From the UHGV virus genome UHGV-0361196: a DNA stretch of 39,311 nucleotides; one strand, written 5' to 3'. The notes under the pieces are model-generated. The model made no database searches. It saw nothing but the letters and a program-made list of their open reading frames with translations, and was not told the DNA's origin. Below are positions 2,633 to 39,268 of the stretch, one piece after another (position 1 is the first letter of the stretch; every line of letters starts with the position of its first letter). This stretch comes from a virus. Both the position numbers and the translations under genes were made by a program.

Positions 2633-2694
2633 TACGCGGACGTTCTGATGGGGGCTTCTGTTTCTTCATGCCTGTCATTTGTCTGTTACTTATA

Positions 2695-2870
2695 GAGAGG
2701 TAAATCATTTGATACTGCTGAAAAATCCGGGAGGAAAGTGGATCAAACGGGATTTGATGGGATAAAACAAACAGTTATGACGTAAAACAGTGTTATGCGC
2801 ACAACATGTGATTTGATACTACTGTCGCAAAGAAAGCTAAAAACGAAAAAATATTTGATACTACTGATTT
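2695..2870. repeat. left end (attL-like) with three putative transposase-binding repeats
   Basis: TTTGATAC at 2708..2715, 2812..2819 and 2854..2861 in the same orientation; L1 is about 100 bp from the adjacent L2/L3 pair, as in Mu attL; the reverse complement GTATCAAA recurs three times at the right end. Confidence 0.6.
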
Positions 2871-2895
2871 CTGCGATTTTAACGTTTTAAACAGG

Positions 2896-2932
2896 TTAAA
2901 AAACCAGCCGCGGGCTATTGGAATTAGCCCGC
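2896..2932 (-). terminator. candidate intrinsic terminator of repressor gene
   Basis: 8-bp stem GCGGGCTA / TAGCCCGC (2910..2917 / 2925..2932) with 7-nt loop; plus-strand A-run 2898..2903 gives a U-run after the hairpin on the minus strand; stem overlaps the stop codon. Confidence 0.4.
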
Positions 2933-3508
2933 CTTCGATTCTAAACTACTTGAGAGTTTATCGCTTTCAATTTCTGCCAAAATCTCTCTAACTCTTTCAT
3001 CCGATAAATGATCTAAAAGTAGAGCTGCTGCACGTTTTCGTCCTTCAAGTTGGATTAGTTCTTGATTCTCTGGTTCAAGTAACCGTGACAAGTACTTAGC
3101 TCCATTTAGCGCGAGGATTTTTGATAATCGCTCTGCCTCTGATGCTTCTAAAGCACTTAGTATAGCAAGAAGGCGCTGTAGCGTTATATCTAGGGGCAAT
3201 TGGACGTTTTCATCTATTTTAGGTGATATTGGTTCTATATCCTCCTTGCCAAAAACAAGCCAATCAATGCTCACCCCTTCTGCAAAAGCAATCTGACTAG
3301 CTACTTGTAGAGATGGTGTCGCATCTTTCTCAAAGTAGTTGTTAAGTGTTGAGAACGGTAGCCCCCACGCCTTCGCCACGGCAGTCTTGGAGCGCCCGCG
3401 CATTAGCATGGCTAGGCGCTCTTTAATGCTTTCTTTTTGAAACACAGGAAAAGAAAAATCACTTTCTTTTTCAGTGCTTCTTTCTTTTCTGTTAACCATA
3501 TGATTCAT
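2924..3508 (-). CDS. prophage repressor with XRE/lambda-cI-like HTH (Mu c functional equivalent)
   Basis: Only minus-strand gene in the prophage, divergent from ner as in Mu; HTH-like segment SKTAVAKAWGLPFSTLNNY followed by GVSIDWLVFG; start ambiguous (ATG 3508 or 3499 preferred over the GTG at 3559 that gives the 211-aa track ORF). Confidence 0.7.
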   Translation of the reverse strand: MNHMVNRKERSTEKESDFSFPVFQKESIKERLAMLMRGRSKTAVAKAWGLPFSTLNNYFEKDATPSLQVASQIAFAEGVSIDWLVFGKEDIEPISPKIDENVQLPLDITLQRLLAILSALEASEAERLSKILALNGAKYLSRLLEPENQELIQLEGRKRAAALLLDHLSDERVREILAEIESDKLSSSLESKAG

Positions 3509-3648
3509 AAAGAAATATCCTTTTGTAGATAAAAACCACCAAAGAAAGAGATAAAACACCTTTACTTTTCTTTTGTAGTGATCAAATATTTATCTGTAGA
3601 GATTATCCGGCGGTGTTATCCGCGCAGATAACTTTTAAGGATAAACGA
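3509..3648. promoter_or_regulatory. divergent early/repressor promoter-operator region
   Basis: Intergenic between divergent repressor and ner; repeated CTTTTGTAG-like motifs (about 3514..3530 and 3569..3585; variant TATCTGTAGAG about 3591..3601) and near-palindrome GTTATC-CGCGCA-GATAAC at 3615..3632; lies about 0.8-0.95 kb from the left end, where Mu has its operators and transposition enhancer. Confidence 0.5.
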
Positions 3649-3885
3649 ATGATGTCTATAAATGAAGTTGTTAAACAGGACTGGCACCCCGCGCATGTTG
3701 TCGCGGCGGTGCATGTAAAAGGTTTTACTTTACGCTCTCTGTCCATTGAAGCCGGTTTAAACCAGGATTCTTTAAAGAATGCCCTGTACCGCAAATGCCC
3801 AAAATATGAGCGCATTATTGCTGATGCTATTGGTGTTGCGCCGGAGGAGATCTGGCCCAGCCGTTACGCTCGTAAGGTGGCATAA
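3649..3885 (+). CDS. ner: Ner-like DNA-binding early regulator (Ner/Nlp family)
   Basis: C-terminal region ...ADAIGVAPEEIWPSRY resembles the Ner/Nlp family signature; RBS AGGA 9 nt upstream of ATG 3649; the track ORF from 3613 is probably a 5' over-extension. Confidence 0.8.
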   Translation: MMSINEVVKQDWHPAHVVAAVHVKGFTLRSLSIEAGLNQDSLKNALYRKCPKYERIIADAIGVAPEEIWPSRYARKVA

Positions 3886-3887
3886 AA

Positions 3888-5975
3888 ATGTTTGTATCAG
3901 TTAATGAGCTTGTAGGGTTACCAGGTATGCCGGGAACTGCGCAAGGGGTGCGGTATTCCATAAGGAAACTGGCCTCATCTGAGCATTTCAGGCGCAAACG
4001 TGCGGGTTCAAAAACCATTGAATACAGCATCGACTGCCTCCCTCCGGTTACACAACGGGCGTTACGTGAGCGACATGTAGCTCAACTGATGGCAAGCGCC
4101 CCGCGGGAGATAACTACCCAGCCTCCTGTAAAGCGTGAACGCAAACAAAATGTTGTACAGCCTGTTGAGGCATATCGCGGTTCGCCACAATTGGTAGAAG
4201 AGCGTCTGAATGCGCTTACGGAAAATCAACGTAAAGTTGCAGAAGCGCGCATTGCTCTTGTCTGTGAAGTTCTACGAATTAGCCAGGAGCCGGGATTCAG
4301 TTGTGCCAGCGCTATACGTTTTATTGTGTCGCGGTTAGCGCAGGGTAACCTGGAAGAACGCCTGGAATCTTTGGTCATTACTGCTAATGCCCGTAAAGGA
4401 AAAGAGCGAACTCTGAGCGCAATTACGCTCAAACGTTGGATAGCTGCGTTTAACAAAGCACAGAATGCCGCAGAACGACTGCTGTTACTGGCACCAGGAA
4501 AGCGCGACGAAATAAAACCGGAAGAAATTAGCTGGCTGCCTGAATTTCTGGCGCAGTATCGTCAGGCTAACGGCAGGCCTATGTCTGAAGCCTATGAGGA
4601 TTTTGTCGCTGATTGGCAGCGTCGCCATGCGGACGAACCATACATGCTGGAGGTGATGCCTTCCTATGATGTTGTCCGGTATGCCATGAAAAAACTGCCG
4701 GAAGTGGTGAAACAAAAAGGGCGCGTTACCGGCAGTGAATACCGTCAGCTTGAAGGATTCACCCGCCGCGACTGGACAGCTATGCCGGTGAATTATGTCT
4801 GGATTGGTGACGGTCACGGTATGAAGCTGAAATGTGCACATCCGATCCACGGGCGTCCATTCTCACCGGAAGTTACATTTGTGATCGACGGTGGAACCCG
4901 GTTTGTTGTTGGCTGGAGTCTTGACCTTGCCGAGAACGTGTTCGCCGTTGCCGGTGCGATACAGCACGGCATTCGCAACCACGGAAAACCGTTTCTGTAT
5001 TACTCGGATAATGGTTCTGGTGAAACGGCTGACATACTGGACAAAGAGGTCGTGGGTATTCTGCCCCGCCTGGGGATTAAACACCCTACCGGTATTGCCG
5101 GTAATCCACAGGGGCGCGGCATTATTGAACGCCTGAACCGGACACTGCCGATGCGTATAGCCAGGAGGTATCGCACCTATTTTGGCAAGGGTGCTGACCG
5201 GGAATCGTTGCGTGTACTTAACCGTGATCTGCGTTCAGCGTTTAACGCCATGCAACAGGACAAGCCTCTGAACGACCGCCAGAAAGCTGCAATGCGCGAG
5301 CTACCATCGTGGGCGGAGCTTATTGAGGCTATTCGTGAAGGCGTGGAATGGTACAACAACCGCCCGCATTCTGAGCTGCCAATGAAACCGAACGGGCGGC
5401 ATTACAGCCCGGCAGAGTTCAGAAAAAAACGCCTGGCAGAAGAAGACACCGAAATTGAGTGGCTGAGTGATCTTGAGCTGCGCGACATGTTCCGCCCGAT
5501 GGTGGAACGCCCGGTAAGACGGTGCGAAATTCAGTGGCTGAACAATATTTACTACGCGCCGGAGTTGCGTGACGAACACGGTCGCAAAGTACTTATCAGT
5601 TATGACATTCATGACGCCGAGCGAATTACGGTACGTCGCAAGGACGGCAGCTTTATCTGTGAGGCGATATGGAACGGCAATAAACGCACAGCCTTTGCTG
5701 TCAGTGCTGAATATCACAAACAACAGCAGCGTATTAAAGGAATGCGCAAACGTGCTGAGGAAAAAATTCGTGATGCTGAGGATGAAGGCATTCAGATACT
5801 GGAGCACAAACAGGCTGAACCCTGGCTGGATAATGTTTATCGCCCGGTTGGCAATACGGTAACCATCCAGCAACAGGATTATGAGGAGGATTACGACGAA
5901 GATTATGAACGCGATTTCAGGCTGGGTTTGCAGAAGCTTGTAGCCATACAGGAACAGGATGATCCGCTGGCCTGA
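3888..5975 (+). CDS. DDE transposase, MuA family (divergent from Mu A)
   Basis: 695 aa; N-terminal enhancer-binding-like domain (VNELVGLPGMPGT...KTIEY) and candidate DDE residues in IGDGHG, YYSDNGSG and GIIERLNRTL, aligned by eye to Mu A catalytic core; acidic C-terminus; RBS AAGGTGG. Confidence 0.9.
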   Translation: MFVSVNELVGLPGMPGTAQGVRYSIRKLASSEHFRRKRAGSKTIEYSIDCLPPVTQRALRERHVAQLMASAPREITTQPPVKRERKQNVVQPVEAYRGSPQLVEERLNALTENQRKVAEARIALVCEVLRISQEPGFSCASAIRFIVSRLAQGNLEERLESLVITANARKGKERTLSAITLKRWIAAFNKAQNAAERLLLLAPGKRDEIKPEEISWLPEFLAQYRQANGRPMSEAYEDFVADWQRRHADEPYMLEVMPSYDVVRYAMKKLPEVVKQKGRVTGSEYRQLEGFTRRDWTAMPVNYVWIGDGHGMKLKCAHPIHGRPFSPEVTFVIDGGTRFVVGWSLDLAENVFAVAGAIQHGIRNHGKPFLYYSDNGSGETADILDKEVVGILPRLGIKHPTGIAGNPQGRGIIERLNRTLPMRIARRYRTYFGKGADRESLRVLNRDLRSAFNAMQQDKPLNDRQKAAMRELPSWAELIEAIREGVEWYNNRPHSELPMKPNGRHYSPAEFRKKRLAEEDTEIEWLSDLELRDMFRPMVERPVRRCEIQWLNNIYYAPELRDEHGRKVLISYDIHDAERITVRRKDGSFICEAIWNGNKRTAFAVSAEYHKQQQRIKGMRKRAEEKIRDAEDEGIQILEHKQAEPWLDNVYRPVGNTVTIQQQDYEEDYDEDYERDFRLGLQKLVAIQEQDDPLA

Positions 5976-6048: not shown

Positions 6049-6981
6049 ATGACCGATATTAATGATGTTTTCAACACGATTAACACACTTATTACTGACG
6101 GCGTAAAAACACAAAGCGCTATTGCTAAAGAAGCGGGGGTGTCGGAGGCCACTCTTTCTGAACTTCGCAAAGGCCGTTACAAAGGTGATACCGAAGGGAT
6201 GCATGACAAATTACTGATGTGGCATCAGAGCTGGCAAAAAAGTCTGGAGTTACCTGGCGCACCACAACTTGTGGAAACACAAACCCTCCGTGATTTGCGC
6301 GAGCTGTTTCAGACCGTGCGTGTTATGGGCTGTATCAGCGTTCTGGTTGGTGTGCCGGGTGTTGGTAAAACCGTTGCGGCCCGTGAATACAGTAACCGTG
6401 TATCTAATACCTGGATGGTGACCCTTTCCCCTGCACACTCAACAGTGACTGAGTGTCTGCTGGAGCTGGCAGACGCGCTGGGAATTGATAATCCGCAAAG
6501 AAATAAAGGCGCATTGACCCGCGCCATTCGCAAAAAACTGAATGGCACACGCGGTCTGGTTATTGTGGATGAAGCTGACCACCTGAGCATGGACGGGCTG
6601 GAGCAGTTACGCGCCATTCAGGATGCAACCGGCGTCGGGATGGTATTGATTGGCAACCCACACCAGTTAGCCAAAGCCACACACCGGGGAACAGATGACC
6701 TTGCACGTTTGTTCAGTCGTTTCGCCAGAACAAAGCAACTACGTAAAGCCAAAAAGGCTGACGTGGTGGCAATTGCGAAAGCCTGGGGCATTGAGGGCGA
6801 AGATGAATTATCACTCATGCAGAGCATCGCGGAAAAACCAGGTGCATTACGTGTATTAACTCATACGCTGAATCAGGCGTGGCTGGCTGCCAGCGGGAAA
6901 GGCGTTCCTCTATCCAAAGGCTACATTAAAGCAGCTTTTAAAGAGGTTTACAGCAACCCGAAATTACTGAACTGGTGGTAA
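6049..6981 (+). CDS. MuB-like AAA+ ATPase transposition target-capture protein
   Basis: 310 aa; Walker A GVPGVGKT and Walker B VIVDEADH; N-terminal HTH-like region; directly after transposase gene as in Mu; RBS GGAGA. Confidence 0.9.
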   Translation: MTDINDVFNTINTLITDGVKTQSAIAKEAGVSEATLSELRKGRYKGDTEGMHDKLLMWHQSWQKSLELPGAPQLVETQTLRDLRELFQTVRVMGCISVLVGVPGVGKTVAAREYSNRVSNTWMVTLSPAHSTVTECLLELADALGIDNPQRNKGALTRAIRKKLNGTRGLVIVDEADHLSMDGLEQLRAIQDATGVGMVLIGNPHQLAKATHRGTDDLARLFSRFARTKQLRKAKKADVVAIAKAWGIEGEDELSLMQSIAEKPGALRVLTHTLNQAWLAASGKGVPLSKGYIKAAFKEVYSNPKLLNWW

Positions 6982-38532: not shown

Positions 38533-39190
38533 GTATGAAGGCCAGATTGTTGGCTATGGTTCAAAGGAGCTGCGCGTTGAAACCATATCCTGCTGGCTGG
38601 CCCGCACAATTATTCAGACAAAGCACTATTCCCGCCGTTTTGTGAATAACTCTTACCTCCACCTGGGAGTATTCAGCGGACGCGATCTGGTTGGCGTTCT
38701 CCAGTGGGGATATGCCCTTAACCCCAACTCAGGTCGTCGTGTCGTGCTTGAAACGGATAACCGGGGCTATATGGAGTTGAATCGCATGTGGCTACACGAC
38801 GACATGCCCCGCAACTCTGAATCACGGGCCATCAGCTACGCGCTGAAAGTTATCAGATTACTGTATCCGTCAGTGGAGTGGGTTCAGTCATTTGCTGACG
38901 AACGCTGCGGATGCGCAGGCGTTGTGTATCAGGCGTCGAATTTTGATTTTATTGGCAGCCATGAAAGCACGTTCTACGAGCTGGATGGTGAGTGGTATCA
39001 CGAGATAACGATGAACGCAATTAAGCGCGGTGGACAACGAGGCGTGTATTTACGGGCTAATAAAGAGCGTGCCGTGGTGCACAAATTTAATCAGTATCGC
39101 TACATCAGGTTCCTGAACAAGCGAGCAAGGAAGCGGCTAAATACTAAGCTATTCAGGGTTCAGCCATACCCTAAAAGCACTCCCGATTAG
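38453..39190 (+). CDS. mom: Mom, DNA modification protein (adenine modification, anti-restriction)
   Basis: ORF overlapping the 3' end of com in another frame, as in Mu; matches Mu Mom as recalled; the true start is probably downstream of 38453, near the com stop. Confidence 0.85.
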
Positions 39191-39268
39191 TATCAAATAA
39201 TTTTTCGTTGTGCCGTTTTGGGTGGTATCAAAAAAAATTCAAAACGGTATCAAATGATTTTGCGCGCT
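39186..39268. repeat. right end (attR-like) with three putative transposase-binding repeats
   Basis: GTATCAAA at 39190..39197, 39225..39232 and 39247..39254, the reverse complement of the left-end TTTGATAC motif; the outermost 14-mer AAATCATTTGATAC is shared by both ends in inverted orientation. Confidence 0.6.

What the first reader, a model, noticed from the sequence alone, without database searches (positions are those of the whole stretch)
3509..3648. Operator/enhancer-like repeat array between divergent repressor and ner
The 140-bp divergent region holds at least two copies of CTTTTGTAG plus a related TATCTGTAGAG, and the near-palindrome GTTATC-N6-GATAAC lies immediately upstream of the ner start. 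In Mu the equivalent region holds the operators that double as the transposition enhancer, and the A protein here keeps an enhancer-binding-like N-terminal domain. Because the repressor is XRE-type rather than Mu-c-type, which protein reads which repeat is not obvious.
Basis: partly seen in the sequence, partly recalled or inferred. Interest (0 to 1): 0.45.

Follow-up and report, generated by a model that had tools for sequence, protein, structure and literature searches.

The report
Mu-like phage lysis–lysogeny control region
The 140-bp gap between the repressor gene and ner is the early control region of a Mu-like prophage: comparison with related prophages indicates that the left half carries sites for the phage's own repressor around the early promoter and the right half carries palindromes for Ner, an ordinary layout with one twist, since the repressor no longer shares its DNA-binding domain with the transposase.

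Summary
The repeats are real and at the stated coordinates, but alone they are weak. A 9-mer repeat appears in about 5% of shuffles and a 6-bp inverted repeat in about 49%. The evidence comes from 22 related prophage loci in which repressor, Ner and transposase modules have been naturally reshuffled.

All loci share a sigma-70-like early promoter frame (window: -35 at 3561-3566, -10 at 3584-3589). The left part holds both CTTTTGTAG copies and an inverted partner at 3535-3547. This part changes with the repressor type.

The right part (3590-3632) is two palindromes built on the half-site TTATCCG. It follows the Ner type (partial rho 0.79) and not the transposase N-terminus (0.03).

The repressor is a chimera: an XRE helix-turn-helix domain fused to a Mu-c-like C-terminal domain. 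The transposase keeps the enhancer-binding domain Ialpha.

No block follows Ialpha, so enhancer function is untested. The candidates are family-independent CTTTCTTT elements flanking an IHF-like site, which extend into the repressor's first codons.

Verdict: a new variant of a known kind, of moderate-to-low interest. No binding has been shown.

The parts
2924..3508 (-). Immunity repressor gene. N-terminal XRE/CI-type helix-turn-helix domain plus a C-terminal domain homologous to Mu repressor c.
   Evidence: ORF. Pfam HTH_3 and Phage_CI_repr at residues 33-91. hhalign aligns residues 106-191 with Mu c residues 98-186, probability 91%, E 1e-6. No PDB sequence relative.
3493..3505 (-). IHF-consensus-like site, AATCATATGGTTA on the - strand (one mismatch to WATCARNNNNTTR). 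It overlaps repressor codons 2-5.
   Evidence: A site with at most one mismatch sits at a fixed place on the same strand in 19 of 22 related loci, and is perfect in 9. Only the N positions vary. Binding was not tested.
3429..3487 (.). Cluster of family-independent CTTTCTTT-type elements inside repressor codons about 8-27 (exact copies at 3429, 3462 and 3480 on +; AAAAGAAAA at 3449). Candidate left half of an enhancer-like element, or an mRNA hairpin.
   Evidence: CTTTCTTT occurs 6 times in the window against 1.26 expected, 4 of them within 3429-3548. These are nearly the only words of 8 or more bases shared by different immunity cassettes that have the same A N-terminus. Synonymous sites are frozen at codons 19-20 and 25-27 across 15 lineages while other conserved codons vary.
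3516..3532 (+). Site A, TATCCTTTTGTAGATAA, holding the first CTTTTGTAG (3520-3528). Proposed repressor operator. It overlaps the repressor's ribosome-binding site (AAGGA on the - strand, 3518-3522).
   Evidence: Conserved in 5 of 6 sub-lineages of the same repressor family while flanking bases are scrambled. Replaced in prophages with another repressor but the same ner and A.
3535..3547 (-). Site B', TTTCTTTGGTGGT on the - strand. It is the inverted partner of site B and lies upstream of the -35. It contains the family-independent AAAGAAAG (3541-3548).
   Evidence: Inverted repeat I5, 11 of 13 positions complementary to 3567-3579. Other repressor families also have an arm upstream of the -35 that is the inverse of their spacer motif, for example GATCCACAT / ATGTGGATC.
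3561..3566 (+). Predicted -35 hexamer of the early promoter Pe (TTTACT).
   Evidence: A -35/17-bp/-10 frame lies 59-62 bp upstream of ner in 23 loci. Mu's annotated Pe has TTTACA-17-TATCTT in the same position. A strict consensus scan did not call it. No start-site data.
3567..3583 (+). Site B, the 17-bp Pe spacer TTTCTTTTGTAGTGATC, holding the second CTTTTGTAG (3570-3578) and a GATC (3580-3583). Proposed primary repressor operator.
   Evidence: Invariant in 5 sub-lineages with 68-100% repressor identity. The spacer sequence sorts by repressor helix-turn-helix family across 23 loci. Partial rho with repressor identity is 0.36 (0 of 2000 permutations), with none for Ner or Ialpha.
3584..3589 (+). 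Predicted -10 hexamer of Pe (AAATAT). It also marks the right edge of the exchangeable immunity cassette.
   Evidence: Identity between the window and the O111-type prophage rises from about 0.7 to at least 0.93 at about 3590.
3591..3604 (.). IR1, the palindrome TATCTGT|AGAGATT. Proposed Ner operator covering the predicted Pe start.
   Evidence: It follows the Ner type, not the repressor. It uses the same half-site as IR2 in every Ner type.
3603..3609 (+). Extra direct half-site TTATCCG between IR1 and IR2. With 3590 and 3616 it gives a 13-bp period.
   Evidence: Present only in the window's Ner type; other types have GATAACAC here.
3615..3632 (.). IR2, the palindrome GTTATCCGC|GCAGATAAC. Proposed Ner operator.
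   Evidence: Unique in the window, 0.04 expected. A perfect 18-bp palindrome GTTATCCGTACGGATAAC in a 74%-identical Ner type. It becomes GTTATCAAATTTCGTAAC where the Ner recognition helix changes from DSLKNAL to NNLYNAV. Right-block partial rho with Ner is 0.79.
3637..3641 (+). ner ribosome-binding site (AAGGA), 7 nt before the ATG.
   Evidence: Read from the sequence. AACTTTT(A/T)AGG(A/G)TA is conserved in all loci.
3649..3885 (+). ner gene.
   Evidence: Pfam HTH_35, E 2.9e-25. 46% identical to Mu Ner. PDB hits EnrR 7F9H and Mu Ner 1NEQ.
3888..4082 (+). Codons for the N-terminal Ialpha-like (enhancer-binding type) domain of transposase A. The gene runs to 5975.
   Evidence: PDB 1TNS (MuA Ialpha), E 4.6e-6, query residues 2-62; also Mu c DNA-binding domain 1G4D, E 0.01. 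Pfam HTH_Tnp_Mu_1.

Best explanation
The interval is the early (lysis-lysogeny) control region of a Muvirus prophage. It has three parts.

(1) The early promoter Pe sits in the middle: -35 TTTACT at 3561-3566, a 17-bp spacer, and -10 AAATAT at 3584-3589. It reads rightward into ner-A-B.

(2) To its left lie sites for the prophage's own repressor. Site B fills the Pe spacer and holds the second CTTTTGTAG. Site B' is its inverted partner upstream of the -35. Site A holds the first CTTTTGTAG and lies over the repressor's ribosome-binding site. An oligomeric repressor bound here would occlude Pe and probably autoregulate its own gene. Oligomerisation would come from the Mu-c-like C-terminal domain.

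(3) To the right, covering the predicted Pe start and the ner leader, lie two palindromes of the half-site TTATCCG (IR1 at 3591-3604, IR2 at 3615-3632). Ner would bind each, probably as two monomers per palindrome, and turn early transcription down.

What is shown: the sequence elements, their conservation, and which protein module each block travels with. What is inferred: actual binding, the transcription start, and the regulatory signs.
For: Identity of the element:
- The window is 99.8% identical to Yersinia phages vB_YpM_5 and vB_YpM_6 (genus Muvirus) and to E. coli prophages inserted at many different loci.

The promoter:
- A conserved promoter frame lies 59-62 bp upstream of ner in 23 loci.
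- It matches the layout of Mu's annotated Pe.

Natural module swaps:
- Prophages with 100% identical Ner and A N-terminus but a 57%-identical repressor keep 3591-3648 at 93-100% identity. They replace about 2870-3590.
- The same pattern holds in three further Ner groups.
- An O111-like repressor carries GATCCAC(A) upstream of the -35 and its inverse in the spacer, whether paired with the window's Ner or with a 55%-identical Ner.
- Spacer classes follow the end of the repressor recognition helix: NNYFEK goes with TTTTCTTTT-type spacers, and NNYL(T/S/H)(R/K) with ACAT..GGATC-type spacers.

Statistics over 22 loci and 231 pairs:
- Right 44 bp: partial rho 0.79 with Ner (0 of 2000 permutations), 0.03 with Ialpha, -0.06 with repressor.
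- Pe spacer and upstream 48 bp: partial rho 0.36 and 0.29 with repressor (0 of 2000 each), none with Ner or Ialpha.

The Ner sites:
- IR1 and IR2 use the same half-site within each Ner type. Both change together (CCG to CAAA) where the Ner recognition helix changes.
- Mu's Ner region contains CTAAGT-N6-ACTTAG just downstream of Pe, the same geometry as GTTATC-N6-GATAAC.
- A Ner-family protein, EnrR, was crystallised as two closely packed monomers on a palindrome (PMC9023278).
Against: - No binding, footprint or transcription start data exist for this phage. The two papers on its relatives do not analyse the region.
- The promoter is weak by consensus (4/6 and 3/6) and a strict scan found none.
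- The repressor sites are asymmetric and degenerate. Only site B is invariant. No clear dyad of the kind expected for a CI-type dimer was found.
- Part of site A's conservation could be due to the ribosome-binding site.
- The left-block correlations with repressor identity are modest (0.29-0.36).
- Loci share ancestry, so the counts are not independent events.
- Ner and the A N-terminus are genetically linked. They are separated statistically and by a few informative lineages, not by a clean ner/A recombinant.
Confidence: 0.7

Rival explanations
1. The CTTTTGTAG repeats are mainly transposase (A Ialpha) binding sites. They would be the transposition enhancer, as in Mu where operators and enhancer coincide, and the XRE-type repressor would bind something else.
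For: - The A protein keeps an Ialpha-like domain.
- The motif begins with CTTTT, like the repeats in Mu's O1/O2 region (CTTTTCAGTAA and similar).
- One copy sits in the Pe spacer, exactly as a Mu O2 repeat does.
- The region lies about 0.85 kb from the left end, similar to Mu's enhancer at about 1 kb (PMC3145075).
Against: - Prophages with a 100% identical A N-terminus lack CTTTTGTAG and carry GATCCACAT-type repeats in the same positions.
- The spacer and upstream blocks show no positive partial correlation with Ialpha identity (-0.18 and -0.02).
- The GTAG-containing part of the motif is specific to one repressor family.
Confidence: 0.12
2. The direct repeats are a by-product of composition and of the ribosome-binding site in a T/C-rich stretch, and only the promoter is functional. 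There would be no discrete repressor sites at 3520 and 3570.
For: - A 9-mer repeat arises in about 5% of shuffles.
- CCTTTT in site A is the complement of the repressor's Shine-Dalgarno sequence.
- T/C-rich words are common throughout 3420-3580.
Against: - Site B is invariant across sub-lineages whose neighbouring non-coding bases are scrambled.
- Every repressor family has its own motif in the same two or three positions, with an inverted arm upstream of the -35.
- Permutation tests link these blocks to the repressor.
Confidence: 0.06
3. The palindromes at 3591-3632 act as RNA hairpins in the ner leader, affecting mRNA stability or translation, rather than as Ner binding sites.
For: - They lie in the predicted 5' untranslated region.
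- Arm complementarity is kept across lineages.
Against: - The predicted fold of 3596-3660 is no better than shuffles (z = -0.94), and the best structure does not use the GTTATC/GATAAC arms.
- No Rfam match.
- IR1 and IR2 share one half-site sequence and change together with the Ner recognition helix. This points to a common protein reader.
Confidence: 0.05

Closest known systems
Phage Mu early control region (operators O1-O3, promoters Pe and Pc, IHF site, Ner site; also the transposition enhancer, called E or IAS)
   Same: - Divergent repressor and ner-A-B genes, just under 1 kb from the left end.
- Pe with a TTTAC(A/T) -35 and a 17-bp spacer that holds a CTTTT-type repeat, with an inverted copy upstream of the -35.
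- T/C-rich repeats running into the first repressor codons.
- An IHF-consensus site next to the repressor start.
- A 6-bp-arm, 6-bp-spacer palindrome just downstream of Pe (PMC3145075).
- The repressor's C-terminal domain is homologous to Mu c.
- Ner is 46% identical to Mu Ner.
   Different: - The repressor's DNA-binding domain is an XRE/CI-type helix-turn-helix, not the winged helix that Mu c shares with MuA Ialpha. Repressor and transposase therefore cannot read the same sites through homologous domains.
- The Ner half-site is TTATCCG, not CTAAGT.
- The IHF-like site is on the other strand and inside the repressor's codons.
- A GATC abuts the -10.
Pseudomonas Mu-like phages of the B3 / D3112 / Fc02 group
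   Same: A CI-like helix-turn-helix repressor is divergent from a ner-led early operon, with overlapping or adjacent pC and pE promoters. One paper describes this configuration as prevalent among such phages (PMC9936078).
   Different: - No detectable DNA similarity. Only a 123-bp match at 78% to one Pseudomonas phage, inside the repressor gene.
- Here the repressor carries a Mu-c-type C-terminal domain, and the transposase keeps a clear Ialpha domain.
- Operator sequences were not compared.
EnrR of Edwardsiella piscicida (Ner-family protein, PDB 7F9H/7F9I)
   Same: It is the closest solved relative of the window's Ner (E 3.6e-17). It binds a palindrome as two closely packed monomers through the helix-turn-helix (PMC9023278). 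This fits two Ner monomers on each TTATCCG palindrome.
   Different: EnrR recognises AT-rich palindromes (AATAAATNATTTATT, core CTATAG), has an N-terminal extension that contacts the minor groove, and acts genome-wide against H-NS. The sites here are G+C-containing and local.

Membership tests
Mu-type early control region (between c and ner) | Lies between a leftward immunity repressor gene and a rightward ner-A-B operon, just under 1 kb from the left end of a transposable prophage. | tested here: met
   Gene order and Pfam assignments. Left junction at about 2691-2696 from insertions in different genomic contexts. Three end-type repeats at 2708, 2812 and 2854.
Mu-type early control region (between c and ner) | An early promoter whose core is overlapped by repressor sites. 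| tested here: inconclusive
   A conserved -35/17/-10 frame in 23 loci, with repressor-family-specific spacers, parallel to Mu's annotated Pe. The strict scan was negative. There are no start-site or binding data.
Mu-type early control region (between c and ner) | Repressor and transposase share a homologous N-terminal winged-helix domain, so operators double as the enhancer. | tested here: not met
   Repressor N-terminus is HTH_3 / Phage_CI_repr. BLASTP against Mu c aligns only C-terminal stretches. The A N-terminus hits MuA Ialpha and the Mu c DNA-binding domain; the repressor hits neither.
Mu transposition enhancer (E / IAS) | Two clusters of transposase (Ialpha) binding sites separated by an IHF site (PMC3145075). 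| tested here: inconclusive
   Family-independent CTTTCTTT elements lie on both sides of an IHF-consensus-like site, with frozen synonymous sites. No block co-varies with Ialpha, and the coding copies may reflect a conserved peptide or an mRNA hairpin.
Mu transposition enhancer (E / IAS) | Binding by the A N-terminal domain and stimulation of transposition. | not testable with these tools
   Needs protein-DNA binding and mini-element transposition assays.
Ner operator (Mu / D108 type) | Inverted half-sites just downstream of the early promoter start that co-vary with the Ner protein. | tested here: met
   IR1 and IR2 positions. Partial rho with Ner 0.79, against 0.03 for Ialpha. Concerted half-site change with the recognition helix. 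Mu has CTAAGT-N6-ACTTAG at the equivalent place.
Lambda-type CI/XRE operators | Dyad-symmetric operators of about 14-18 bp, each bound by a repressor dimer. | tested here: not met
   Sites A, B and B' share an asymmetric core, CTTT(T/G)GT(A/G)G, in direct and inverted orientation. TATC...GATA-type symmetry around them has inconsistent spacing (inspection). No LexA/S24-type cleavage domain is present; the C-terminal domain is Mu-c-like.

The most novel reading that the evidence does not exclude
In this clade the transposition enhancer has been uncoupled from the immunity operators. The A Ialpha domain would read family-independent CTTTCTTT-type elements. One cluster lies inside the repressor's own first 27 codons, where synonymous sites are frozen. 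Another lies next to the Pe -35. An IHF site separates the two. Interchangeable XRE-type repressors would bind their own interleaved sites. The repressor would then block transposition by overlap and by shutting Pe, not by competing for identical sites through a shared domain as in Mu. Immunity cassettes could be swapped without breaking the enhancer.
Probability: 0.3. Interest if true: 0.55.

Novelty: new variant of a known kind. Interest (0 to 1): 0.35.

Why it matters
Mu is the textbook case in which a repressor and a transposase share a DNA-binding domain, so one set of sites serves as both operator and enhancer.

This widespread enterobacterial clade of Mu relatives keeps the transposase domain, Ner, and the C-terminal half of the Mu repressor. 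It has replaced the repressor's DNA-binding domain with an XRE fold.

The natural module swaps give a testable map of which protein should read which element. They also offer a simple system for asking how an enhancer and an operator coexist when they are no longer the same sites.

In practice, the map defines the immunity cassette (about 2870-3590). That predicts which of these prophages should be immune to one another.

None of this overturns the known logic of Mu regulation.

Tried and rejected
- The strict sigma-70 and terminator scan of 3400-3760 found nothing. I located the promoter by conservation instead.
- Scanning one genome per species with the A protein returned only two loci, both with a different repressor and ner. 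Exact-protein look-ups and viral-contig scans gave the useful diversity.
- My first left/right identity measure, with free end gaps, gave erratic left-block values. I replaced it with promoter-anchored blocks.
- I first read gATCAAatatTTA at 3581-3593 as an IHF site. It is better explained as the Pe -10 region, and the TTR part is not kept in other lineages.
- I searched for a conserved leftward repressor promoter and found no universal candidate. Two local candidates remain. One is TTGGTG (3542-3537), 17 bp, GATATT (3519-3514). The other is TTATCT (3631-3626), 18 bp, GATAAT (3607-3602), present only with the window's Ner type.
- RNA explanations were weak: no Rfam match and a fold of the ner leader no better than shuffles.
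- The PDB sequence search with the repressor gave nothing meaningful.
- The classic Mu and D108 control-region papers were not in the library. Statements about Mu's Ner consensus and operator consensus therefore rest on the Mu sequence itself, its GenBank annotation, a review and my own knowledge.

Full report
**What the window is.** Positions from about 2691-2696 onward are a Mu-like prophage. The stretch 2650-3900 is 99.8% identical to Yersinia phages vB_YpM_5 and vB_YpM_6, genus Muvirus. It is 97-100% identical to prophages inserted at unrelated places in E. coli chromosomes. The DNA to the left matches more than a thousand E. coli plasmids. So this copy sits in a plasmid backbone.

The genes are as follows.
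- A leftward repressor, 2924-3508.
- ner, 3649-3885.
- Transposase A, 3888-5975.
- B, 6049-6981.
- Three end-type repeats TTTGATACTRCTG at 2708, 2812 and 2854.

**Checking the observation.**
- CTTTTGTAG lies at 3520-3528 and 3570-3578, the only exact copies in 39 kb.
- TATCTGTAGAG lies at 3591-3601.
- GTTATC-N6-GATAAC lies at 3615-3632.

On sequence alone they are not compelling. A 9-bp direct repeat arises in 249 of 5000 dinucleotide shuffles of the 140 bp. A 6-bp-arm inverted repeat arises in 2440 of 5000. The case rests on comparison with relatives.

**The three proteins.**
- Repressor: its N-terminal part is XRE/CI-type (Pfam HTH_3 and Phage_CI_repr). A profile of its family aligns residues 106-191 with residues 98-186 of Mu repressor c (probability 91%, E 1e-6). 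Plain BLASTP shows only a short C-terminal match. The protein is therefore a chimera: an XRE DNA-binding domain on a Mu-c-type C-terminal domain.
- Ner: 46% identical to Mu Ner. Its closest solved relatives are EnrR and Mu Ner.
- Transposase A: its N-terminus matches the solved MuA Ialpha domain (1TNS, E 4.6e-6) and, more weakly, the Mu c DNA-binding domain.

**Related loci.** I collected loci in three ways.
- From E. coli genomes.
- By exact look-up of repressor homologues at 43-84% identity.
- By scanning viral contigs with Ner and with the A N-terminus.

Extracting the divergent repressor, Ner, the A N-terminus and the upstream DNA showed that the modules have been reshuffled in nature.
- The window's Ner and A N-terminus (100% identical) occur with a 57%-identical repressor, the 'O111-type'.
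- A 74%-identical Ner occurs with two repressor families.
- A 55%-identical Ner occurs with an O111-like repressor and with yet another.
- A fourth Ner type occurs with two more.

**A common promoter frame.** In 23 loci a -35 / 17-bp / -10 frame lies 59-62 bp upstream of the ner start.
- The -35 is TTTACT, TTTACA, TTGTAA or TTGATT.
- The -10 is AAATAT, AATTAT or AATACT.
- In the window the -35 is 3561-3566 and the -10 is 3584-3589.
- Mu's annotated early promoter has TTTACA, 17 bp, TATCTT in the same relative place.
- A strict consensus scan does not call it. It is a weak promoter identified by conservation, not by start-site data.

**The left part follows the repressor.**
- The window and the O111-type prophage are 93-100% identical up to about 2870 and again from about 3591. 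Between these points identity is only 40-83%. The exchangeable immunity cassette therefore ends exactly at the Pe -10.
- Within the window's repressor family (52-98% identity), the Pe spacer TTTCTTTTGTAGTGATC is invariant in five sub-lineages. It differs at three positions in the most distant one.
- TTATCCTT(T/A)T(G/A)TAGATAA (site A) is also kept, while the bases between the sites are scrambled.
- An inverted partner of the spacer motif lies upstream of the -35 at 3535-3547, matching 11 of 13 positions.
- Other repressor families have their own motif in the same positions. O111-type and its relative L055 both have GATCCAC(A) upstream and GTGGATC in the spacer, although their Ner proteins are only 55% identical. 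A third family has CCATAT upstream and ATATGG in the spacer. A fourth has ACCAAAAATACC and GGTATTTTTGGT.
- Spacer class also follows the end of the recognition helix: NNYFEK versus NNYL(T/S/H)(R/K).
- Over 22 loci, spacer identity and identity of the 48 bp upstream have partial rank correlations of 0.36 and 0.29 with repressor identity (0 of 2000 permutations each). There is none with Ner or Ialpha.

**The right part follows Ner.** The 44 bp after the -10 has a partial correlation of 0.79 with Ner identity (0 of 2000 permutations). The values are 0.03 with Ialpha and -0.06 with the repressor. The block consists of two palindromes of one half-site.
- In the window these are TATCTGT|AGAGATT (3591-3604) and GTTATCCGC|GCAGATAAC (3615-3632). 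An extra direct TTATCCG lies at 3603.
- In the 74%-identical Ner type the second palindrome is a perfect 18-mer, GTTATCCGTACGGATAAC.
- Where the Ner recognition helix changes from DSLKNAL to NNLYNAV, both palindromes change together, to TATCAAATTTGATA and GTTATCAAATTTCGTAAC. A concerted change in two separate palindromes argues for one protein reader.
- It argues against RNA hairpins. The ner leader also folds no better than shuffles (z = -0.94), and there is no Rfam match.
- Mu has CTAAGT-N6-ACTTAG just downstream of its Pe, the same arm and spacer lengths.
- EnrR binds a palindrome as two packed monomers.
It reads TATCCGCAGAG in prophages that share this Ner, so it is not a member of the CTTTTGTAG family.

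**Proposed mechanism.**
- In the lysogen, the repressor occupies sites B (Pe spacer), B' and A. Oligomerisation through its Mu-c-like C-terminal domain is inferred. Binding would block Pe and probably regulate the repressor's own expression, since site A overlaps its ribosome-binding site at 3518-3522.
- After induction, Ner made from the first gene binds the two palindromes over the Pe start and leader and damps early transcription. In Mu, Ner also represses the repressor promoter.
- I could not locate the repressor promoter. Two local candidates exist but neither is universal.

**The enhancer question.** The transposase keeps Ialpha, yet nothing in the region co-varies with it. Prophages with identical Ialpha have different left halves.
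- The words of 8 or more bases that such heterologous cassettes share are almost all CTTTCTTT(T)-type, in both orientations.
- In the window CTTTCTTT occurs 6 times against 1.26 expected. Four copies lie within 3429-3548 and one lies beside the second end repeat.
- Three copies lie in repressor codons 8-27. Between them and sites A/B'/B is a site matching the IHF consensus with one mismatch (3493-3505). A site at the same place and strand is present in 19 of 22 loci, with only the N positions varying.
- This resembles the published description of Mu's enhancer: two clusters of transposase sites separated by an IHF site, overlapping the operators.
- Across 15 diverged repressor lineages, synonymous positions are saturated at most conserved codons. 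They are frozen at codons 19-20 (TCT TTT) and 25-27 (AAA GAA AGY). That suggests a constraint at the nucleic-acid level.
- The caveats are real. These codons encode a conserved peptide (FSFP...KES). The two arms could form an A-U-rich mRNA hairpin. The sequence is of low complexity.
- I therefore treat an enhancer made of family-independent elements as the most novel reading still open (probability about 0.3), not as a finding.

**Comparison with what is known.** The layout is that of Mu and D108, and a CI-like repressor divergent from ner is already described for Pseudomonas Mu-like phages. The papers on the Yersinia phages and on SfMu do not analyse this region. Three things are particular here.
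- The chimeric repressor.
- The clean three-way modularity: repressor sites, shared promoter and shared elements, Ner sites.
- The resulting separation of operator specificity from the transposase's DNA-binding domain.

I file it as a new variant of a known kind, with interest 0.35.

Noticed in passing
window 2924-3508 (repressor residues 106-191): The repressor is a domain chimera. It has an XRE/CI-type helix-turn-helix N-terminus and a C-terminal domain homologous to Mu repressor c (hhalign probability 91%, E 1e-6). Pairwise BLAST barely sees this.
   Followed up: yes
window 3493-3505 (- strand): An IHF-consensus-like site (AATCATATGGTTA) overlaps repressor codons 2-5. A site at the same position and strand occurs in 19 of 22 related loci, perfect in 9. 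It is present whether that DNA is coding or not.
   Followed up: partly
window 3429-3487 and 3541-3548: CTTTCTTT occurs 6 times in the window against 1.26 expected, with 4 copies in 120 bp. Repressor codons 19-20 and 25-27 (FSF...KES) have frozen synonymous sites across 15 lineages. They form a conserved inverted repeat, CTTTCTTTT-N10-12-AAAAGAAAG. This could be a DNA site or an mRNA hairpin.
   Followed up: partly
window 2978-2989 (repressor codons 174-177, AGA GAG ATT TTG): A second patch of completely frozen synonymous sites near the repressor's C-terminus, across 15 diverged lineages. Neighbouring conserved codons vary. The cause is unknown.
   Followed up: no
window 3580-3583: A GATC (Dam methylation site) directly abuts the predicted Pe -10. 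It is there in 18 of 23 related loci across different repressor families. Mu's Pe spacer has none.
   Followed up: no
window 3516-3527 versus L003 (E. coli O111:H2 strain 12A prophage): The 12-mer TATCCTTTTGTA of site A also occurs in the O111-type cassette. There it is in the opposite orientation and abuts that cassette's IHF-like site. Unexplained.
   Followed up: no
window 2691-2870: The prophage left junction is at about 2691-2696, with a plasmid backbone to the left. Three end-type repeats TTTGATACTRCTG lie at 2708, 2812 and 2854, and a diverged inverted copy at 39185-39197 lies near the right end. One CTTTCTTT sits beside the second repeat (2829-2836).
   Followed up: partly
whole window: The Ner half-site word TTATCCG occurs 14 times in the window against 4.2 expected (0 of 100 shuffles reach 14), mostly inside late genes. 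This may be codon bias or dispersed weak Ner sites.
   Followed up: no
L086, L089-L091, L097-L104 (viral contigs from the Ner scan): More distant Ner-bearing prophages carry Mu-c-type repressors, with a winged-helix N-terminus resembling the transposase. Both repressor architectures therefore coexist among Ner-encoding transposable phages.
   Followed up: no
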